64,000 nt of DNA, from the sequence record OR352942.1, one strand, 5' to 3'. The notes beneath the pieces are model-generated. The model was not told the origin of the DNA. It did not search any database and saw only the letters and a list, made by a program, of their open reading frames with translations. Source of the DNA: Escherichia phage AV112. Position numbers and translations under genes: made by a program. Below are positions 55,910 to 63,452 of this stretch, piece by piece (position 1 is the stretch's first letter; each line of letters opens with the position of its first letter).

Positions 55910-56842
55910 TTATGATTTTAATGCATTCATTGCGTTAAAAAGTTTAGAGTACTGCAACTGGAGCTTGGTAACTACTTGTTGAGCATCACGAAGCTTAGCT
56001 TGTGCTTTGTCAAGTTCAACAGACAGTTGATCCACAGTGCCTTTGATTTGATTATAATAGTAATCTTCGGCAGGAAGAAGGCCGTTAGAGATTTCCAGTT
56101 TAGTCGTCGGTGTGCCGTTAAACATAACAGGTTGTGCTGAAGCTGCATTAATCTTACCGATAGTCGGGGCGACAATAATTGACGCTTCGAACGTTGCATT
56201 TTCCTTTTTAAGATTTTGATAGTATTCAGAGTCTTTGTGCCACCATGGCGCAGGAACCTTTTTACCAATAGATACACGAGCCTGGATAGCGATATGGCCC
56301 TTATTCTTGATAACGTCGATAATATTAAGCTCACGAGAATAAATTGCTTTAATCTGGTGAATATTATCACCTAACACTTCCAACGCTTGGTGGAATACAC
56401 GAGCAACGTTATCATTCTTAGGTTTATACGTAAGAGTGAACTCGTTCTCACTGATAACCATGATTTCTAACTTATCGTAAGTATATTTCAAATGTTTCAT
56501 GTTAATTGCTTGAGGACGAATACGAGAAGCAATGGCCATCAGATTGTTAAGGTTATTCCGGAACTGCTTAGCGAAATATTGTCCTTCACCACCAATACAA
56601 AAATTACGAAGTTTCTGTTTGGCTAATAAACGGCTGAACTCACCGTTTTTAATGAACTCTTTAACGGGTGTGTTAGTAACGCATTCAAATTGAGTAAACT
56701 TACGAGAAGTAATCCCATAATATGAACAGATTTCCTCAATCTCTTCAGGAGTCTTTACAGGCATACGGATAGGATTAGGACCTGGGGTATATGCGTTCGA
56801 GGTAAATTCTTTGATAAGTTCTCTACGTGTAATAGAAGCCAT
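55910..56842 (-). CDS. hypothetical protein with C-terminal coiled coil (310 aa)
   Basis: C-terminal DQLSVELDKAQAKLRDAQQVVTKLQLQYSKLFNAMNALKS. Confidence 0.45.
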   Translation of the reverse strand: MASITRRELIKEFTSNAYTPGPNPIRMPVKTPEEIEEICSYYGITSRKFTQFECVTNTPVKEFIKNGEFSRLLAKQKLRNFCIGGEGQYFAKQFRNNLNNLMAIASRIRPQAINMKHLKYTYDKLEIMVISENEFTLTYKPKNDNVARVFHQALEVLGDNIHQIKAIYSRELNIIDVIKNKGHIAIQARVSIGKKVPAPWWHKDSEYYQNLKKENATFEASIIVAPTIGKINAASAQPVMFNGTPTTKLEISNGLLPAEDYYYNQIKGTVDQLSVELDKAQAKLRDAQQVVTKLQLQYSKLFNAMNALKS

Positions 56843-56897
56843 TTTATATTCCTCATGTTGAAAAATTTATTATACTCCAACCATCCTTGGTTGTACA
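56843..56897 (-). promoter_or_regulatory. PeSL-like early promoter cassette (same repeat family)
   Basis: TATTATACTCCAACCATCCTTGGTTGTACA. Confidence 0.5.
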
Positions 56898-57893
56898 TCA
56901 TTCCTTAAGAAGTTTTACTACTTGAATAAGATTAGCTCGTTCTGTTTTATTTTTACCGTTTAAGCCTGCTAATCGTGAGATTTCATCGTCAGTCTGTTGA
57001 ATAGTTACATTAAGTTCGTTAATCAAAGCTTCAAAGTATTTGATTTGCTCAGCATGTTTTGATTCAAATTTCTGAACCGGAATAACGTCTTGGTTTAGTT
57101 CATCAATAAGGTCTTTAAGAGCATCTTCTTGATTGATATCATATTCAACTTCTTTTATTTCTTCAACGAGCTCGTCTTTATATCTAACGTCTTTTAGTCC
57201 TGGTGCTGGTCCTGAAATCTCTTCTTTAAGAGTACAAACATATCCAATACGGTATCCAATGCCGTCTCGCTTGATATCAACTTCGTCAATAAATCCACAA
57301 TGTTTAAGACCAGAGCCGATTAAGTCAAAATATCCTTGACGACGTCCTTCAAACGTTACACGAACTACTAAGACAGTTTTACCTGCAACCTTTTGAAGCT
57401 CACATTTATAAAAGTTTGTTGAACCTGAATAACGTGGATGAGTTTTAAAGTTCATCTGACGATCTAGGCCCATTTGTAAGCGTGCTGATACGGCCATAAA
57501 ACGTGTTTGGTTCTCGTTAAGATGAGCAACAATCCATTTCAAAGGCATTTTACACTGTTCACGACCGAACAAATCAGTACGTCCTAGATTACGCAGGATG
57601 TTGTTAGAGTTAATCATCGACAGAACATTAAGTTTATTCAGCGCGCTGAAGATTCCATCAGCCATTGATTTTCCGTAACCTTTACACGCTTTAATAAGCG
57701 CTCGCGGTAGATTAGCATAGATTTCAGACGGCATATGAAAATCAAATTTACTAGTCAGTAATTGATGAACTTGGATAGCAATTTGCTCATAATTAAGTGC
57801 TCTGCGATCATTATGATCTTTAAACCACACTTTAATCTGTGAAGCACATAAACCGTTAATTTCATGTTTTACCGCATCAGATGTAATGCTCAT
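56898..57893 (-). CDS. hypothetical protein with C-terminal coiled coil (331 aa)
   Basis: C-terminal EQIKYFEALINELNVTIQQTDDEISRLAGL... Confidence 0.45.
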   Translation of the reverse strand: MSITSDAVKHEINGLCASQIKVWFKDHNDRRALNYEQIAIQVHQLLTSKFDFHMPSEIYANLPRALIKACKGYGKSMADGIFSALNKLNVLSMINSNNILRNLGRTDLFGREQCKMPLKWIVAHLNENQTRFMAVSARLQMGLDRQMNFKTHPRYSGSTNFYKCELQKVAGKTVLVVRVTFEGRRQGYFDLIGSGLKHCGFIDEVDIKRDGIGYRIGYVCTLKEEISGPAPGLKDVRYKDELVEEIKEVEYDINQEDALKDLIDELNQDVIPVQKFESKHAEQIKYFEALINELNVTIQQTDDEISRLAGLNGKNKTERANLIQVVKLLKE

Positions 57894-58967: not shown

Positions 58968-59948
58968 TTATTTCAGTAAAGTAACTTCAGAGATTTCCTC
59001 CCAACCATCTTTATCAGTTGAAATAAAATCTGCTACATAAAGAGCCGTACGTAATGATACATTGCGAAGACGAGATACATTAGCCTTCATCCAGGACAAT
59101 GCTTTATACGTTTCTGCATCTGTCAGACCACGTTTCTGCATCATGTCAGTAGATAATATTACATCTTCAACTCGAACCATAATCTCTTCATTAGAGTGTA
59201 CTCCAAGGTCGAGATACACTGAACGAGATACTAAAGCTTGAAGGTGTGGGGCAAGTTTCGAACCGCGTTCTAACTCTTTATCGATATCAACGTTTGTAAT
59301 GAAAACGATAGTACCTTCAAACTCAAATTCTTTATCAATACCCTTATCATCGAGATAAGATGACGCAGTGCTCCAACAAACTTTGCGTTTATCTCCAGTA
59401 TCTAATGCTGCTTTAAGAAGGTTCAAGATGTCCATATCTGAGAATACGTCAACGTCGTCGATTAAGAGAACGCTGTCTGCATCACGGTTGAGCCAAAGTT
59501 GTTCGTAAAGGCCAATACCGGAGATTTTACCATTAATGCTTTTGTATTTGATGAAACCATTATCATTAGCGTTATTAAGTGCTTTATCCAGAGAATACGT
59601 CTTACCAATACCGGCTGCACCTGAAATAATGAGTGAACGAATTTTGCCATCGATAATGCCATTCGTCATCATGTTCATTACTTTAAAGCGTTTGTTGATA
59701 CGAGTTTTCATATCTTCAGTGCTTTCAACAACTGCAACTGGTGACGTCTCAACTCCTTCCATTACGATGTCTGATTTGAAGACCCATACTCCACGTTCAG
59801 ACCCATCAATCATAACGAAAATTTTACCATCACCTAAGTGGGAACATTCAGGATTAAGCTTTGCTGGGAACCATGTCTTTGTGGCAACATAAGAACCAGA
59901 GATTTCGTTATTACGATAAATACCTTTTTTGATTTGAACGTTGAACAT
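58968..59948 (-). CDS. P-loop (AAA-like) ATPase, about 326 aa (start at MFNVQ)
   Basis: Walker A GAAGIGKT, Walker B LLIDDVD; the second ATG has a GGAG Shine-Dalgarno. Confidence 0.5.
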   Translation of the reverse strand: MFNVQIKKGIYRNNEISGSYVATKTWFPAKLNPECSHLGDGKIFVMIDGSERGVWVFKSDIVMEGVETSPVAVVESTEDMKTRINKRFKVMNMMTNGIIDGKIRSLIISGAAGIGKTYSLDKALNNANDNGFIKYKSINGKISGIGLYEQLWLNRDADSVLLIDDVDVFSDMDILNLLKAALDTGDKRKVCWSTASSYLDDKGIDKEFEFEGTIVFITNVDIDKELERGSKLAPHLQALVSRSVYLDLGVHSNEEIMVRVEDVILSTDMMQKRGLTDAETYKALSWMKANVSRLRNVSLRTALYVADFISTDKDGWEEISEVTLLK

Positions 59949-60015
59949 TTTATTCTCCAATTTACTCATTTCGTTTCGATAGGTCTATAATAACATGTTT
60001 AAAGCAAAAGTAAAC
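59949..60015 (-). promoter_or_regulatory. PeSL-like early promoter cassette
   Basis: Minus strand GTTTAC-N17-TATTAT with GATAGGTCTATAATAAC core. Confidence 0.45.
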
Positions 60016-60292: not shown

Positions 60293-60314
60293 CTACTTTT
60301 TAAAAATATTTTAA

Positions 60315-60340
60315 CCCCCTAAAGGGACCCGAAGGTCCCC
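60315..60340 (-). terminator. UUCG-tetraloop terminator hairpin
   Basis: Minus strand GGGGACC-ttcg-GGTCCC followed by TTTAGGGGGTT. Confidence 0.5.
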
Positions 60341-60344
60341 ACAT

Positions 60345-60626
60345 TTACTTATCGCACTTAGCAACATAATTAGGCATATCACAGAATACGGAGCGAGTAA
60401 CTACTCGGCCCTTTGACCATGCTTCAGTTGCTTGTCCGGCTGTGCTATTAATATAGCTTGATCTAATGTTCTCAATACCCTGAGAATGTGATGCATTTAC
60501 CGAACCATTAGAAGACCCAGAAGACTGGTTACCACCAGCTCCTGCGCTACCGCTGGCTGCACCCGTGGTAGCACCAACAGAGAATGCCATCATTACTGCG
60601 AATAAACCAATTACTATTTTTTTCAT
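60345..60626 (-). CDS. secreted Gly/Ser-rich protein with signal peptide (93 aa)
   Basis: MKKIVIGLFAVMMAFSVGA signal peptide; low-complexity G/S region; two C-terminal Cys. Confidence 0.45.
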   Translation of the reverse strand: MKKIVIGLFAVMMAFSVGATTGAASGSAGAGGNQSSGSSNGSVNASHSQGIENIRSSYINSTAGQATEAWSKGRVVTRSVFCDMPNYVAKCDK

Positions 60627-60657: not shown

Positions 60658-61647
60658 TTATTTATAGTAAGAATTATGATTTTCGAGATAGACTTGTTCA
60701 AGGAAGTCATCCCAGAAACTCATATCTACTTTTTGTTGCATACCGTTCTTGGCAGCTTGTTCTGATGCATGTTCAACTTGGTCAACGATATCTTCTAGGA
60801 ATTCTTGTACAGTTTTAAACGTATGTTTACCAAGCTTAACATCGAGAATAAATGGAGCATCCTGAAGTGGGTAAACCAGGTCGCCGGTTTTATAAATTTC
60901 TAATAGTTGAAGTCCACCACGACATGCATGACTCAATGCTTTCCAGTCAATACCTTCGTTAGCTTCTGCCTTACGAGCACGTTCACCATAGTTCTCTTCC
61001 AGTTTAACCAGGATGGCATTGAACTCTTTATTGGTTAACGTGTCTTGGAATTTACGGTCTAACAGATTATAGAATGTTTGCTTACCTGTTTTCTCGTTTT
61101 CAGTTTCAACCCACGAAGCAAATTCACCTACAGGCAGAACATTCTTCATATGTGATAAACGAATTACTGCACCATTATCAAAGTATTGTCCCCATTCATT
61201 AGAACGTTTAAGGGCTTGACGAAGAACAGCCAGTCGAGAACCCTTGACACCGTATTTAGAAGCTTGTTTACGGACATACCCTAAATAAGATTTCATGTTA
61301 GTGGTATAGAAACGAGACCTGTTATCTTGAATATACTTCCATACATCAGGCAAATCGGATTTAACTACTAAACTTGGTGGAGTGTGAAGCATATCTAATG
61401 CGACGGTTTCGCCATCTGCAGCTAGTTTAAAGAAATATTTGAGACTATACAACTCATGGTCCACGTCGTCTTTTGTGTTCTTAGAAGATGTGTTATTTGT
61501 GTTCTTGCTCATATGTTCTTTAACGTTACCGGTCAAGATATCACGAGCATGAGGGACATAAATTTCTTTAAAATCGACGTCAGATTCAGGAGTAGACGTT
61601 CCATAAAGGTGGCTACCAAAGTAGCCTTTCATAATTGTTTTCATCAT
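60658..61647 (-). CDS. nucleotidyltransferase-fold (pol-beta superfamily, MNT-like) protein, 329 aa
   Basis: N-terminal GSHLYGTSTPESDVD matches the G-S-x(9-13)-D-x-D NTase motif. Confidence 0.45.
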   Translation of the reverse strand: MMKTIMKGYFGSHLYGTSTPESDVDFKEIYVPHARDILTGNVKEHMSKNTNNTSSKNTKDDVDHELYSLKYFFKLAADGETVALDMLHTPPSLVVKSDLPDVWKYIQDNRSRFYTTNMKSYLGYVRKQASKYGVKGSRLAVLRQALKRSNEWGQYFDNGAVIRLSHMKNVLPVGEFASWVETENEKTGKQTFYNLLDRKFQDTLTNKEFNAILVKLEENYGERARKAEANEGIDWKALSHACRGGLQLLEIYKTGDLVYPLQDAPFILDVKLGKHTFKTVQEFLEDIVDQVEHASEQAAKNGMQQKVDMSFWDDFLEQVYLENHNSYYK

Positions 61648-62117
61648 TTGGCCTTATATTCGAGAGTAGGACAGATTTTTTCTTTACGAGCTTTAAGGTA
61701 TTCACCTATTAATGATTTCTTACGTTCAATAGGCTCAAGACCATTTTTAATTCGTTCTTGGTTTTGTGCAATGAGCTCAATTTCTTTATAATATTTTCTG
61801 TCGTTATATTTGTCTAACAACCAAGACGGACCAATTACCAACCCGGTAGCAATAAAAGCCATGACTGCTACCATTAAAATGCCTACACCAATTGAGGCCG
61901 GAACTAATGTCCATAGACTGCTAAAAACAAAGAATCTAGTTAAAATTTCCTGGCCAATGATTACTACTGCTGCTAAAATAGCAAATCCAATAATTGAAAC
62001 AGACAATACTGGGATTAACGTTTTCCAAAAATAAGCACACAACGTTTTCGGGCGATTCCATGTACTATTGAACGCGGCATAAATTTTAAAGTGCCAAGAG
62101 TTTTCATTGATAATCAT
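61644..62117 (-). CDS. membrane protein (157 aa, about three TM helices)
   Basis: Hydrophobic segments; overlaps the start of the NTase-fold gene by 4 nt. Confidence 0.45.
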   Translation of the reverse strand: MIINENSWHFKIYAAFNSTWNRPKTLCAYFWKTLIPVLSVSIIGFAILAAVVIIGQEILTRFFVFSSLWTLVPASIGVGILMVAVMAFIATGLVIGPSWLLDKYNDRKYYKEIELIAQNQERIKNGLEPIERKKSLIGEYLKARKEKICPTLEYKAK

Positions 62118-62945: not shown

Positions 62946-63003
62946 TTTGTTCTCCATTTGTTTTGGTAGGATTACTATATCATAGTCCTACCAAGACGTA
63001 AAC
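62946..63003 (-). promoter_or_regulatory. PeSL-like early promoter/stem-loop cassette
   Basis: Minus strand GTTTAC-N18-TATAGT; inverted repeat GGTAGGA/TCCTACC; GGAG Shine-Dalgarno. Confidence 0.5.
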
Positions 63004-63396: not shown

Positions 63397-63452
63397 AACG
63401 TTCTCCTCTAGTAAGTAAAGACTACTATAACACAACCTGAGGAGAAGTAAAC
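63397..63452 (-). promoter_or_regulatory. PeSL-like early promoter cassette
   Basis: Minus strand GTTTAC-N17-TATAGT; inverted repeat TCTCCTC/GAGGAGA. Confidence 0.5.

What the first reader, a model, noticed from the sequence alone, without database searches (positions are those of the whole stretch)
60658..61647. MNT-type nucleotidyltransferase-fold protein followed by a membrane protein
The N-terminus carries the GS-x10-DVD signature of pol-beta superfamily minimal nucleotidyltransferases, with a roughly 230-aa helical C-terminal extension. The downstream gene, overlapping by 4 nt, encodes a three-helix membrane protein. The context suggests a role in host or defence interference rather than DNA modification.
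Basis: partly seen in the sequence, partly recalled or inferred. Interest (0 to 1): 0.55.

Follow-up and report, generated by a model that had tools for sequence, protein, structure and literature searches.

The report
T4 NrdC.11-type RNA-repair nucleotidyltransferase (RlaP)
This gene is the ortholog, in a T4-like coliphage, of T4 nrdC.11, a known RlaP-family nucleotidyltransferase that most likely adds back nucleotides trimmed from host-cleaved tRNAs before ligation; it is real but already catalogued, and the neighbouring membrane protein shows no sign of being a working partner.

Summary
The window is 100% identical to Escherichia phage AV113, a T4-like Mosigvirus. The ORF at 60658..61647 (minus strand, 329 aa) is real. 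It is 78% identical to T4 NrdC.11, matches Pfam PF10127 (RlaP) above threshold, and has relatives in more than 1,500 phage records. G11-S12, D23 and D25 are invariant in 128 diverse homologs, and position 63 is always acidic. An AlphaFold model (pLDDT 94) shows a pol-beta nucleotidyltransferase core plus a mostly helical C-terminal domain. Its best PDB matches are all nucleotidyltransferases.

The membrane-protein gene (61644..62117) lies upstream, not downstream. The 4-nt overlap holds only for the first ATG, and such overlaps are common in this genome. T4 keeps the enzyme without having the membrane gene at this locus.

Full-length homologs elsewhere sit beside RNA-repair genes. These are Pnkp, Hen1, RtcB and Ro/TROVE in 15 of 80 cellular loci, and RNA ligase with polynucleotide kinase in several viral contigs. 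AV113 itself carries Pnkp, Rnl1 and Rnl2 at distant sites. Two bacterial RlaP enzymes add 1-2 nucleotides to RNA 3'-OH ends in vitro. The likely role is therefore repair of over-trimmed tRNA as a counter-defence, but this is untested in any phage. Already known; modest interest.

The parts
60658..61647 (-). CDS of the 329-aa RlaP-family nucleotidyltransferase, ortholog of T4 NrdC.11. The alternative and probably true start is the second ATG at 61644, giving 328 aa.
   Evidence: ORF. 78% identity to T4 NrdC.11 over its full length. Pfam PF10127 7.7e-13. PHROG 388 2.6e-126. 100% identical to phage AV113.
61303..61647 (-). N-terminal pol-beta nucleotidyltransferase core, about residues 1-115: strands at 3-10, 24-31, 45-49 and 62-68 with intervening helices.
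   Evidence: AlphaFold model, pLDDT 94.3. Best PDB matches are HalB, 3c18, KNTase and LinB. The Pfam RlaP match covers residues 7-152.
61612..61617 (-). G11-S12 of the hG[GS] nucleotidyltransferase motif.
   Evidence: Invariant in 128 of 128 homologs. Coordinates checked.
61573..61581 (-). D23-V24-D25, the two metal-binding carboxylates (DxD).
   Evidence: D23 and D25 are invariant in 128 of 128 homologs.
61459..61467 (-). D61-V62-D63 on the fourth strand. D63 is the inferred third catalytic carboxylate.
   Evidence: Position 63 is acidic in 128 of 128 homologs (124 D, 4 E); D61 is 95% conserved. The strand assignment comes from the model. The catalytic role is inferred, not shown.
61393..61395 (-). 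D85, a further conserved acidic residue in the 'DMLH' segment.
   Evidence: 96% D. Role unknown.
61045..61119 (-). Small beta-sheet insert (residues 177-201) between the helical linker and the C-terminal bundle.
   Evidence: Strands at 177-184, 188-195 and 198-201 in the AlphaFold model.
60664..61032 (-). C-terminal helical domain (residues 206-328), a HEPN/KNTase_C-like bundle.
60919..60948 (-). Family signature D234-W-K-A-L-S-H240-A-C-R243 in the C-terminal domain.
   Evidence: R243 is invariant and D234, K236 and H240 are at least 97% conserved. The tool used this motif as its search pattern for related loci.
61644..62117 (-). Upstream neighbour: a 157-aa membrane protein of PHROG 944 with 2-3 transmembrane segments and a charged C-terminal tail. 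It is syntenic with the enzyme, but not shown to belong to it functionally.
   Evidence: PHROG 944 1.5e-52, no Pfam hit. Hydropathy. Family present upstream on the same strand in 42 of 80 viral loci and 0 of 80 cellular loci. H9, C27, Y29, K147 and C149 are invariant.
62974..63002 (-). Candidate T4-type early promoter (GTTTAC, 17 nt, TG-n-TATAGT) in an intergenic gap. It is a likely start of the transcript that reaches the membrane and enzyme genes.
   Evidence: Consensus scan and sequence. No MotA-box middle-promoter pattern lies on the minus strand between 60 and 64 kb. Assignment is inferred.
60659..60666 (-). TATAAATA, the T4 late-promoter consensus. It overlaps the last codons and stop of the enzyme gene, 33 nt upstream of the next gene's ATG.
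   Evidence: One of only 2 copies in 64 kb, against 7.4 expected. Sequence context.
60313..60340 (-). GC-rich hairpin with a UUCG loop followed by a T-rich tract. It is a terminator-like end of the unit, after the 93-aa gene.
   Evidence: Terminator scan and sequence GGGACC-TTCG-GGTCCC.

Best explanation
The gene encodes the Mosigvirus ortholog of phage T4 NrdC.11, a member of the RlaP family (Pfam PF10127, 'RNA ligase-associating Pol-beta'). The protein has an N-terminal pol-beta nucleotidyltransferase core. G11-S12 and the carboxylates D23, D25 and D63 would hold two divalent metals, probably Mn2+, together with an NTP. A C-terminal helical domain forms the other wall of a cleft lined with conserved basic residues (K27, K131, R223, K236, R243, K271).

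Proposed mechanism. Some host tRNA-targeting defence nucleases cut the anticodon loop and also remove one or more nucleotides; RloC-type wobble excision is the example. In that case the phage Pnkp first heals the ends. NrdC.11 then adds one or two nucleotides, without a template, to the 3'-OH of the 5' tRNA half. The phage RNA ligase (Rnl1 or Rnl2) seals the loop. A fraction of the tRNAs is thereby restored to full length, and phage translation continues.

Shown here: the identity of the gene, its family membership, the fold, conservation of the catalytic residues, the RNA-repair neighbourhoods of full-length homologs, and the presence of Pnkp, Rnl1 and Rnl2 in the same phage genome.

Taken from the literature: addition of 1-2 nucleotides to RNA 3'-OH, shown in vitro for two Pseudomonas RlaP enzymes.

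Inferred: that the phage enzyme has the same activity, and that it acts together with Pnkp and Rnl1 against nucleotide-excising nucleases. The membrane protein encoded just upstream is most likely an unrelated accessory gene that shares the same early transcript.
For: Identity. The window is 100% identical to phage AV113. The protein is 78% identical to T4 NrdC.11 over its full length, and the flanking NrdC.8, NrdC.10 and MobD.1 homologs are in the same order.

Family. PF10127 scores 49.1 bits against a cutoff of 23. 127 of 128 diverse homologs hit PF10127. The RlaP preprint places T4 NrdC.11 in PF10127 cluster 5 (PMC12776372).

Active site. G11, S12, D23 and D25 are invariant and position 63 is always acidic.

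Gene context of full-length homologs at 34-46% identity. 15 of 80 cellular loci have RtcB, bacterial Pnkp, Hen1 or TROVE within 6 kb. In several the neighbour abuts on the same strand: Pnkp at -4, -10, -11 and +3 nt, TROVE at -7 nt (Pfam-confirmed). Among viral contigs, L089 has the enzyme, then an RNA ligase 43 nt downstream, then T4-type Pnkp. L094 has the enzyme, then Pnkp, then Rnl1. L066 has Rnl1, a metallophosphatase, and a P-loop kinase 20 nt upstream of the enzyme. L085 has an HD protein and an OB-RNA ligase downstream.

Partners in the same phage. AV113 encodes Rnl2, Pnkp and Rnl1, 67-75% identical to T4's.

Biochemistry of the family. PfRlaP and PaRlaP add 1-2 NMP to RNA 3'-OH, prefer Mn2+, do not act on DNA or protein, and improve aminoacylation of a repaired tRNA that was missing one nucleotide (PMC12776372). 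The same prediction was made for jumbo phages in PMC7824862.
Against: No phage RlaP has been assayed. The preprint itself labels T4 NrdC.11 'of unknown function'.

The phage clade falls in a different similarity cluster (5) from the characterised enzymes (1a). The Pfam model aligns only to residues 7-152. The C-terminal half has no Pfam match. The PfRlaP crystal structure is not in the PDB copy searched, so the two-domain architecture could not be superposed.

In this phage, and in the T4-like loci examined (NTase identity 47% or more), the gene is not next to an RNA ligase or Pnkp gene. In AV113 those genes lie about 84-112 kb away.

T4 tolerates deletion of nrdC.11-mobD.3 in the laboratory (PMC9825161), so any role is conditional.

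Untemplated addition with little NTP selectivity would restore the correct nucleotide in only a minority of molecules.
Confidence: 0.6

Rival explanations
1. The enzyme adds nucleotides to RNA 3' ends, but for a purpose other than anticodon-loop repair. It could restore or complete the 3' CCA ends of host or phage tRNAs (AV113 carries 10 tRNA genes). Alternatively it could tail host RNAs as a shut-off device, in the manner of MenT-type toxins that extend tRNA acceptor ends.
For: RlaP enzymes label full-length tRNAs and rRNAs as well as cleaved tRNAs, and show little NTP specificity. In T4-like phages the gene is not linked to the ligase or kinase genes. AV113 has a 10-tRNA cluster. MenT-type nucleotidyltransferases that extend tRNA 3' ends are a known way of inactivating tRNA (PMC12409363).
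Against: Homologs of the same clade are embedded in ligase/kinase/Hen1/RtcB/Ro operons, not beside tRNA genes or toxin-antitoxin partners. The characterised enzymes prefer the 3' end at the break of a nicked tRNA over the acceptor end. No antitoxin-like partner is present here.
Confidence: 0.2
2. The enzyme nucleotidylates a protein or a small molecule. One model is an MNT antitoxin that AMPylates and neutralises a host HEPN ribonuclease. Another is an ANT/KNTase-type enzyme acting on a metabolite or antibiotic.
Against: These structural matches are weak (E about 1e-3, TM about 0.3) and reflect the shared superfamily fold. At the sequence level the family is PF10127, not the MNT or ANT families. 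Two RlaP enzymes did not label E. coli proteins. Homolog neighbourhoods point to RNA repair.
Confidence: 0.1
3. The membrane protein and the nucleotidyltransferase form a two-gene module comparable to Hailong (HalA channel plus HalB nucleotidyltransferase). The enzyme would make an oligonucleotide that gates the membrane protein, or that feeds a host Hailong channel to keep it closed.
Against: The enzyme shows no sequence similarity to HalB and the membrane family shows none to HalA in PDB sequence searches. There are no PADLOC hits. T4 and locus L014 keep the enzyme without the membrane gene, and in L017 a homing endonuclease separates the two. 0 of 80 cellular homologs have this membrane family nearby, whereas 15 of 80 have RNA-repair genes. 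Overlaps of this kind are routine in this genome.
Confidence: 0.04

Closest known systems
Phage T4 NrdC.11 (NP_049709.1, annotated 'nucleotidyltransferase')
   Same: 78% identical over the full length. Same position in the nrdC-tk accessory region, with NrdC.10 and NrdC.8 homologs downstream and a MobD.1 homolog upstream. Same Pfam family.
   Different: T4 has the mobD homing endonuclease directly upstream, where this phage has the membrane-protein gene. T4 lacks the two small genes (93 aa and 91 aa) found here between nrdC.11 and nrdC.10. T4's protein is 336 aa.
RlaP family, PF10127; characterised members PfRlaP and PaRlaP from Pseudomonas rtcB-rlaP-rtcA operons (PMC12776372)
   Same: Pfam match above threshold. 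The conserved G-S and aspartate residues are present. The layout is a nucleotidyltransferase domain plus a C-terminal helical domain. Full-length homologs of the phage protein sit in RtcB, Pnkp-Hen1 and Ro operons.
   Different: It belongs to a different similarity cluster (5 against 1a). The Pfam model aligns only to residues 7-152. The model shows an extra beta insert at residues 177-201. In this phage the gene is not adjacent to any RNA ligase. Activity is untested.
Hailong HalB (PDB 9dbh/9dbj), an oligodeoxyadenylate-synthesising nucleotidyltransferase
   Different: HalB is about 217 aa, a bacterial defence protein, and protein-primed on a tyrosine. There is no detectable sequence similarity, and the membrane neighbour here does not resemble HalA.
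Kanamycin nucleotidyltransferase ANT(4') (PDB 1kny) and related antibiotic nucleotidyltransferases
   Same: Top Foldseek hits. They share the two-domain plan of a pol-beta core followed by a helical (HEPN-like) substrate-binding domain.
   Different: Only 8-11% identity and TM about 0.3. Small-molecule substrates. Nothing here suggests a link to antibiotic resistance.
MNT antitoxins of HEPN-MNT toxin-antitoxin pairs (e.g. PDB 7ae9)
   Different: MNT proteins are small (roughly 100-150 aa), pair with an adjacent HEPN toxin gene, and AMPylate a protein. This protein is 329 aa, has no HEPN neighbour and belongs to a different Pfam family.

Membership tests
RlaP (Pfam PF10127, RNA ligase-associating Pol-beta) | Sequence match to the family model above the curated threshold | tested here: met
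   49.1 bits against a cutoff of 23, E 7.7e-13. 127 of 128 diverse homologs also match. The aligned region is only residues 7-152.
RlaP (Pfam PF10127, RNA ligase-associating Pol-beta) | Pol-beta catalytic signature: hG[GS], DxD and a third conserved carboxylate | tested here: met
   G11, S12, D23 and D25 are invariant. Position 63 is acidic in 128 of 128 homologs. The assignment of D63 as the third carboxylate is inferred from the model.
RlaP (Pfam PF10127, RNA ligase-associating Pol-beta) | N-terminal nucleotidyltransferase domain plus C-terminal helical domain forming a cleft, with the last helix packing back on the core (PfRlaP crystal structure) | tested here: inconclusive
   The model (pLDDT 94.3) has a nucleotidyltransferase core, a helical C-terminal domain and a terminal helix at 309-328.
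RlaP (Pfam PF10127, RNA ligase-associating Pol-beta) | Gene neighbourhood with RNA ligase or other RNA-repair genes | tested here: not met
   Not met at this locus: Rnl2, Pnkp and Rnl1 lie about 84-112 kb away in AV113. It is met for full-length homologs of the same clade: 15 of 80 cellular loci and the viral contigs L066, L076, L085, L089 and L094. This association gave the family its name, but only some members show it.
RlaP (Pfam PF10127, RNA ligase-associating Pol-beta) | Adds 1-2 NMP to RNA 3'-OH, Mn2+-preferring, inactive on DNA and protein | not testable with these tools
   Known only for PfRlaP and PaRlaP.
MNT (minimal nucleotidyltransferase) antitoxins | Small single-domain protein encoded next to a HEPN toxin gene | tested here: not met
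   The protein is 329 aa with a large C-terminal domain. Its neighbours are a membrane protein and a signal-peptide protein. There are no PADLOC hits.
MNT (minimal nucleotidyltransferase) antitoxins | Match to the NTP_transf_2 or Polbeta family models | tested here: not met
   The window protein hits only PF10127. Only 2 of 128 homologs touch PF01909 or PF18765.
Hailong (HalA + HalB) | HalB-type nucleotidyltransferase | tested here: inconclusive
Hailong (HalA + HalB) | HalA-type membrane channel encoded beside the enzyme | tested here: not met
   A profile of the membrane family finds no HalA in PDB sequences and has no PADLOC hit. The membrane gene is dispensable for retention of the enzyme in T4.

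The most novel reading that the evidence does not exclude
The membrane protein and the nucleotidyltransferase could be a functional pair rather than chance neighbours. They are kept together on the same strand in about half of the related viral loci, and their stop and start codons abut in three T4-like genera. On this reading the enzyme would make a short oligonucleotide that gates or is sensed by the membrane protein. That would be a phage-borne counterpart of, or a decoy for, the bacterial Hailong HalA/HalB system, whose HalB is the enzyme's best structural match in the PDB.
Probability: 0.04. Interest if true: 0.75.

Novelty: already known. Interest (0 to 1): 0.25.

Why it matters
T4's Pnkp plus Rnl1 pathway is the textbook case of a virus repairing host-inflicted tRNA damage. 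RloC-type nucleases, which also excise a nucleotide, have been thought to defeat that repair. If NrdC.11 fills the gap before ligation, T-even phages would have a three-enzyme answer to such 'smart' nucleases. That is directly testable, because T4 genetics, purified partner enzymes and defined nucleases all exist. For this scan, however, the gene is a catalogued ortholog in a named family. What this analysis adds is modest: the corrected gene order, evidence that the membrane neighbour is separable, and neighbourhood data tying the phage clade itself, not only distant RlaPs, to RNA-repair operons.

Tried and rejected
- Single-sequence AlphaFold failed (pLDDT 37.8, an all-helix artefact). The model was usable only when built with the 128-sequence alignment.
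- PDB sequence searches with the protein and with its family profile found nothing relevant. The PfRlaP crystal structure is apparently not yet released.
- The afdb50 fold library was unavailable.
- The first homolog search returned only near-identical sequences and was useless for building an alignment.
- The C-terminal half scanned alone against Pfam gave only noise.
- NCBIfam and PADLOC gave no hits for the enzyme or its four neighbours.
- A profile of the membrane family against PDB sequences gave only insignificant matches to transmembrane proteins and no HalA.
- One literature query ('RNA ligase-associating' / 'Pol beta') was swamped by DNA polymerase beta papers.
- The Burroughs and Aravind 2016 paper and the Hailong paper are not held in the library.
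- No MotA-box middle promoter lies upstream of the gene on the minus strand.
- Rejected: using the stop/start overlap as evidence of functional coupling, because 14 of 90 adjacent same-strand pairs here overlap by 1 or 4 nt.
- Rejected: membership of the MNT antitoxin family (see membership test).
Full report
**What is in the sequence**

The window is 100% identical to Escherichia phage AV113, a T4-like Mosigvirus (family Straboviridae) isolated from wastewater. The reported coordinates hold a 329-aa ORF on the minus strand, 60658..61647. Its N-terminus is MMKTIMKGYFGSHLYGTSTPESDVDF.

The ORF begins with two tandem ATGs. T4 NrdC.11 and the GenBank and RefSeq annotations start at the second one (61644, 'MKT...'). 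The upstream gene's TGA stop therefore overlaps the start by 4 nt (first ATG) or 1 nt (second ATG).

Because the gene is on the minus strand, the membrane-protein gene (61644..62117) is upstream, not downstream as the finding states. The true downstream gene (60345..60626) encodes a 93-aa Gly/Ser-rich protein with a signal peptide.

**Is it a real gene, and which one?**

- PHROG 388 ('nucleotidyltransferase') matches at E 2.6e-126, and Pfam PF10127 (RlaP) at 49.1 bits against a cutoff of 23.
- tblastn finds relatives in 1,542 phage records, mostly T4-like phages of enterobacteria, Aeromonas, Acinetobacter and Vibrio.
- An exhaustive search of 1.84 billion representative proteins finds 3,214 homologs, of which 742 score below 1e-30. 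Most of the 150 listed are about 300-350 aa and align over nearly the whole query.
- The protein is 78% identical over its full length to T4 NrdC.11. The flanking genes are the T4 nrdC.8, nrdC.10 and mobD.1 homologs in the same order.

The gene is therefore the Mosigvirus ortholog of T4 nrdC.11.

**Fold and conserved residues**

A single-sequence AlphaFold run failed (pLDDT 38). A run with a 128-sequence alignment of diverse homologs gave pLDDT 94.3 and pTM 0.86. The model has four parts:

- a beta/alpha nucleotidyltransferase core, about residues 1-115;
- long helices at residues 119-155;
- a small beta-sheet insert at residues 177-201;
- a helical bundle at residues 206-328.

Conservation across the 128 homologs is as follows:

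- G11, S12, S22, D23, D25, Y132 and R243 are invariant.
- Position 63 is always acidic (124 D, 4 E).
- D61, D85, K131, R223, D234, K236, H240 and K271 are each at least 90% conserved.

This is the pattern of an active enzyme with a basic substrate cleft.

**What the family does**

PF10127 was named RlaP because some members sit in RNA-ligase operons, and it was predicted to restore nucleotides lost from damaged RNA (PMC7824862; PMC12776372). A December 2025 preprint characterised two Pseudomonas RlaPs. Its main findings were:

- They add one or two NMPs to the 3'-OH of RNA.
- They prefer Mn2+.
- They do not act on DNA or protein.
- They prefer the 3' end at the break of a nicked tRNA.
- They raise aminoacylation of a repaired tRNA that had lost one anticodon-loop nucleotide.

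The crystal structure is an N-terminal nucleotidyltransferase domain plus a C-terminal helical domain. The preprint places T4 NrdC.11 in PF10127 (cluster 5, against cluster 1a for the enzymes studied) and calls it 'of unknown function'. I found no paper that tests NrdC.11. T4 survives deletion of nrdC.11-mobD.3 (PMC9825161).

**Does the phage clade itself connect to RNA repair?**

The Pfam model aligns only to residues 7-152, and the C-terminal half has no Pfam match. I therefore did not rely on the distant Pseudomonas enzymes. Instead I used the clade's own C-terminal signature (DWKAxSHAxR) to fetch 80 viral and 80 cellular loci whose proteins align over nearly the full length at 33-100% identity.

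In the cellular set, 15 of 80 loci carry RtcB, bacterial Pnkp, Hen1 or a Ro/TROVE protein within 6 kb (domains confirmed). Several of these neighbours abut on the same strand: Pnkp ends 4, 10 or 11 nt before the enzyme gene, and TROVE 7 nt before it. Each such gene usually occurs about once per genome, so chance adjacency would be well under 1%. That figure is an inference from genome size, not a computed statistic.

In the more distant viral contigs, the arrangements are:

| Locus | Arrangement around the nucleotidyltransferase (NTase) |
|---|---|
| L089 | NTase, then an RNA ligase 43 nt downstream, then T4-type Pnkp |
| L094 | NTase, a 5'-nucleotidase-like protein, Pnkp, then Rnl1 |
| L066 | Rnl1, a metallophosphatase, then a P-loop kinase ending 20 nt before the NTase |
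| L085 | an HD protein and an OB-fold RNA ligase downstream |
| L076 | an Rnl2-like ligase 2.1 kb downstream |

In the T4-like loci examined the genes are dispersed. AV113 encodes Rnl2, Pnkp and Rnl1 (67-75% identical to T4's), but about 84-112 kb from nrdC.11. All partner enzymes are thus present in the same genome, and the operon linkage survives only in relatives.

**The membrane neighbour**

The 157-aa protein belongs to PHROG 944 and has no Pfam, NCBIfam or PADLOC match. It has two hydrophobic blocks, at about residues 33-55 and about 62-101, which means 2 or 3 transmembrane helices, followed by a charged 55-residue tail. Across 21 family members H9, C27, Y29, K147 and C149 are invariant.

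An HMM of the family finds it upstream on the same strand within 2.6 kb in 42 of 80 viral loci. It abuts the enzyme gene in 11 of them. It is found in 0 of 80 cellular loci.

Four observations argue against a functional pairing:

- T4 has the mobD homing endonuclease in that slot, and no membrane homolog in the region.
- Locus L014 lacks the membrane gene, and in L017 mobD sits between the two genes.
- In most loci, other small genes intervene.
- In this window, 14 of 90 adjacent same-strand ORF pairs overlap by exactly 1 or 4 nt.

**Transcription context (inferred)**

Two T4-early-type promoter matches (GTTTAC, 16-17 nt, TG-n-TATAGT) lie in intergenic gaps upstream, at 62974..63002 and 63424..63451. 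No MotA-box pattern lies on the minus strand between 60 and 64 kb. The T4 late-promoter consensus TATAAATA overlaps the enzyme's stop codon, 33 nt before the next gene's ATG. It is one of only two copies in 64 kb, against 7.4 expected. A UUCG hairpin with a T-rich tail follows that gene. The enzyme is therefore probably expressed early together with the membrane protein, and the 93-aa secreted protein late.

**Most likely mechanism**

Host anticodon nucleases cut tRNA. Phage Pnkp heals the ends and Rnl1 seals them; this is the established T4 pathway, as summarised. Nucleases that also remove a nucleotide, such as RloC, would leave a shortened loop that is a poor tRNA after sealing. An RlaP enzyme acting between healing and sealing can add the missing nucleotide back to the 3'-OH of the 5' half, restoring a fraction of functional tRNA.

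The steps shown here are identity, family, fold, the conserved active site, the RNA-repair neighbourhoods of clade members, and the presence of partner enzymes in the genome. The steps that are inferred are the activity of the phage enzyme, its substrate in vivo, and the nuclease it counters. I put this reading at about 0.6.

The rivals, with my confidence in each, are:

- RNA 3'-end addition for another purpose, such as CCA-end repair or MenT-like tailing of host tRNA: 0.2.
- Nucleotidylation of a protein or small molecule, as in MNT or ANT enzymes: 0.1.
- A Hailong-like paired module with the membrane protein: 0.04.

**Comparison and verdict**

It is a pol-beta-fold enzyme with a plausible counter-defence role, but it belongs to the RlaP family, not MNT, and the membrane protein is probably incidental.

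The gene, its family name and the proposed role are already in the literature and in the RefSeq annotation of related phages. I therefore rate it already known, with interest 0.25. The remaining open question is whether NrdC.11 lets T-even phages repair nucleotide-excised tRNAs. That question is specific and readily testable.

Noticed in passing
window 60659-60666 (-): TATAAATA, the T4 late-promoter consensus, overlaps the last codons and stop of the enzyme gene, 33 nt before the ATG of the next gene. It is one of only 2 copies in the 64-kb window (7.4 expected by chance), so the 93-aa downstream gene is probably expressed late and separately from the enzyme.
   Followed up: partly
window 60345-60626 (-): 93-aa protein with a signal peptide, a Gly/Ser/Asn-rich middle and two C-terminal cysteines (PHROG 2243; sub-threshold YbgS-like Pfam hit). 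T4 has no counterpart between nrdC.11 and nrdC.10, and tblastn found it in only 1 of 80 related viral loci.
   Followed up: partly
window 60313-60340 (-): GGGACC-UUCG-GGUCCC hairpin followed by a T-rich tract, between the 93-aa gene and the next small gene. It looks like a stable tetraloop terminator or RNA-stabilising hairpin of the kind known in T4.
   Followed up: no
window 61644-62117 (-) and alignment A2: The PHROG 944 membrane family has invariant H9, C27 and Y29 near the N-terminus and K147 and C149 near the C-terminus, across homologs as low as 19% identical. This may be a metal site or disulfide joining the two tails, which would bear on the membrane topology.
   Followed up: partly
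L002 (T4 56429-57208), L017:9240-9995: The mobD homing endonuclease occupies the slot just upstream of nrdC.11. In T4 it stands where other T-even phages have the membrane gene. In L017 it is inserted between the membrane gene and nrdC.11. This junction appears to be a homing site.
   Followed up: partly
L003 (AV113 GenBank record, 120999-129699): The deposited annotation calls nrdC.11 and several neighbouring nrdC.x homologs 'thioredoxin'. This is evidently a name carried over from the 'nrdC.' gene prefix. The same error appears in many phage records and UniRef names.
   Followed up: no
window 58968-59969 (-): The NrdC.10 homolog is a 333-aa P-loop (GAAGIGKT) AAA-like ATPase with only sub-threshold Pfam hits. 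It lies downstream of nrdC.11 in 35 of 80 viral loci and in no cellular locus. Its function is unknown.
   Followed up: no
L066:991-6311: An 8.5-kb viral contig carries, on one strand, Rnl1, the PHROG 944-type membrane protein, a metallophosphatase, a stand-alone P-loop kinase and the nucleotidyltransferase. This amounts to a split kinase/phosphatase version of an RNA-repair cassette, and it also includes the membrane family.
   Followed up: partly
window, whole: The MotA-box middle-promoter pattern (TGCTTnA, 10-14 nt, TAnnnT) occurs 23 times against 5.6 expected. None lies on the minus strand between 60 and 64 kb.
   Followed up: no
L159:8951-9484, L085:11740-12231: HD-domain phosphohydrolase genes lie just downstream of the nucleotidyltransferase in a bacterial locus and a viral locus. 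They may be further end-healing components of these repair cassettes.
   Followed up: no
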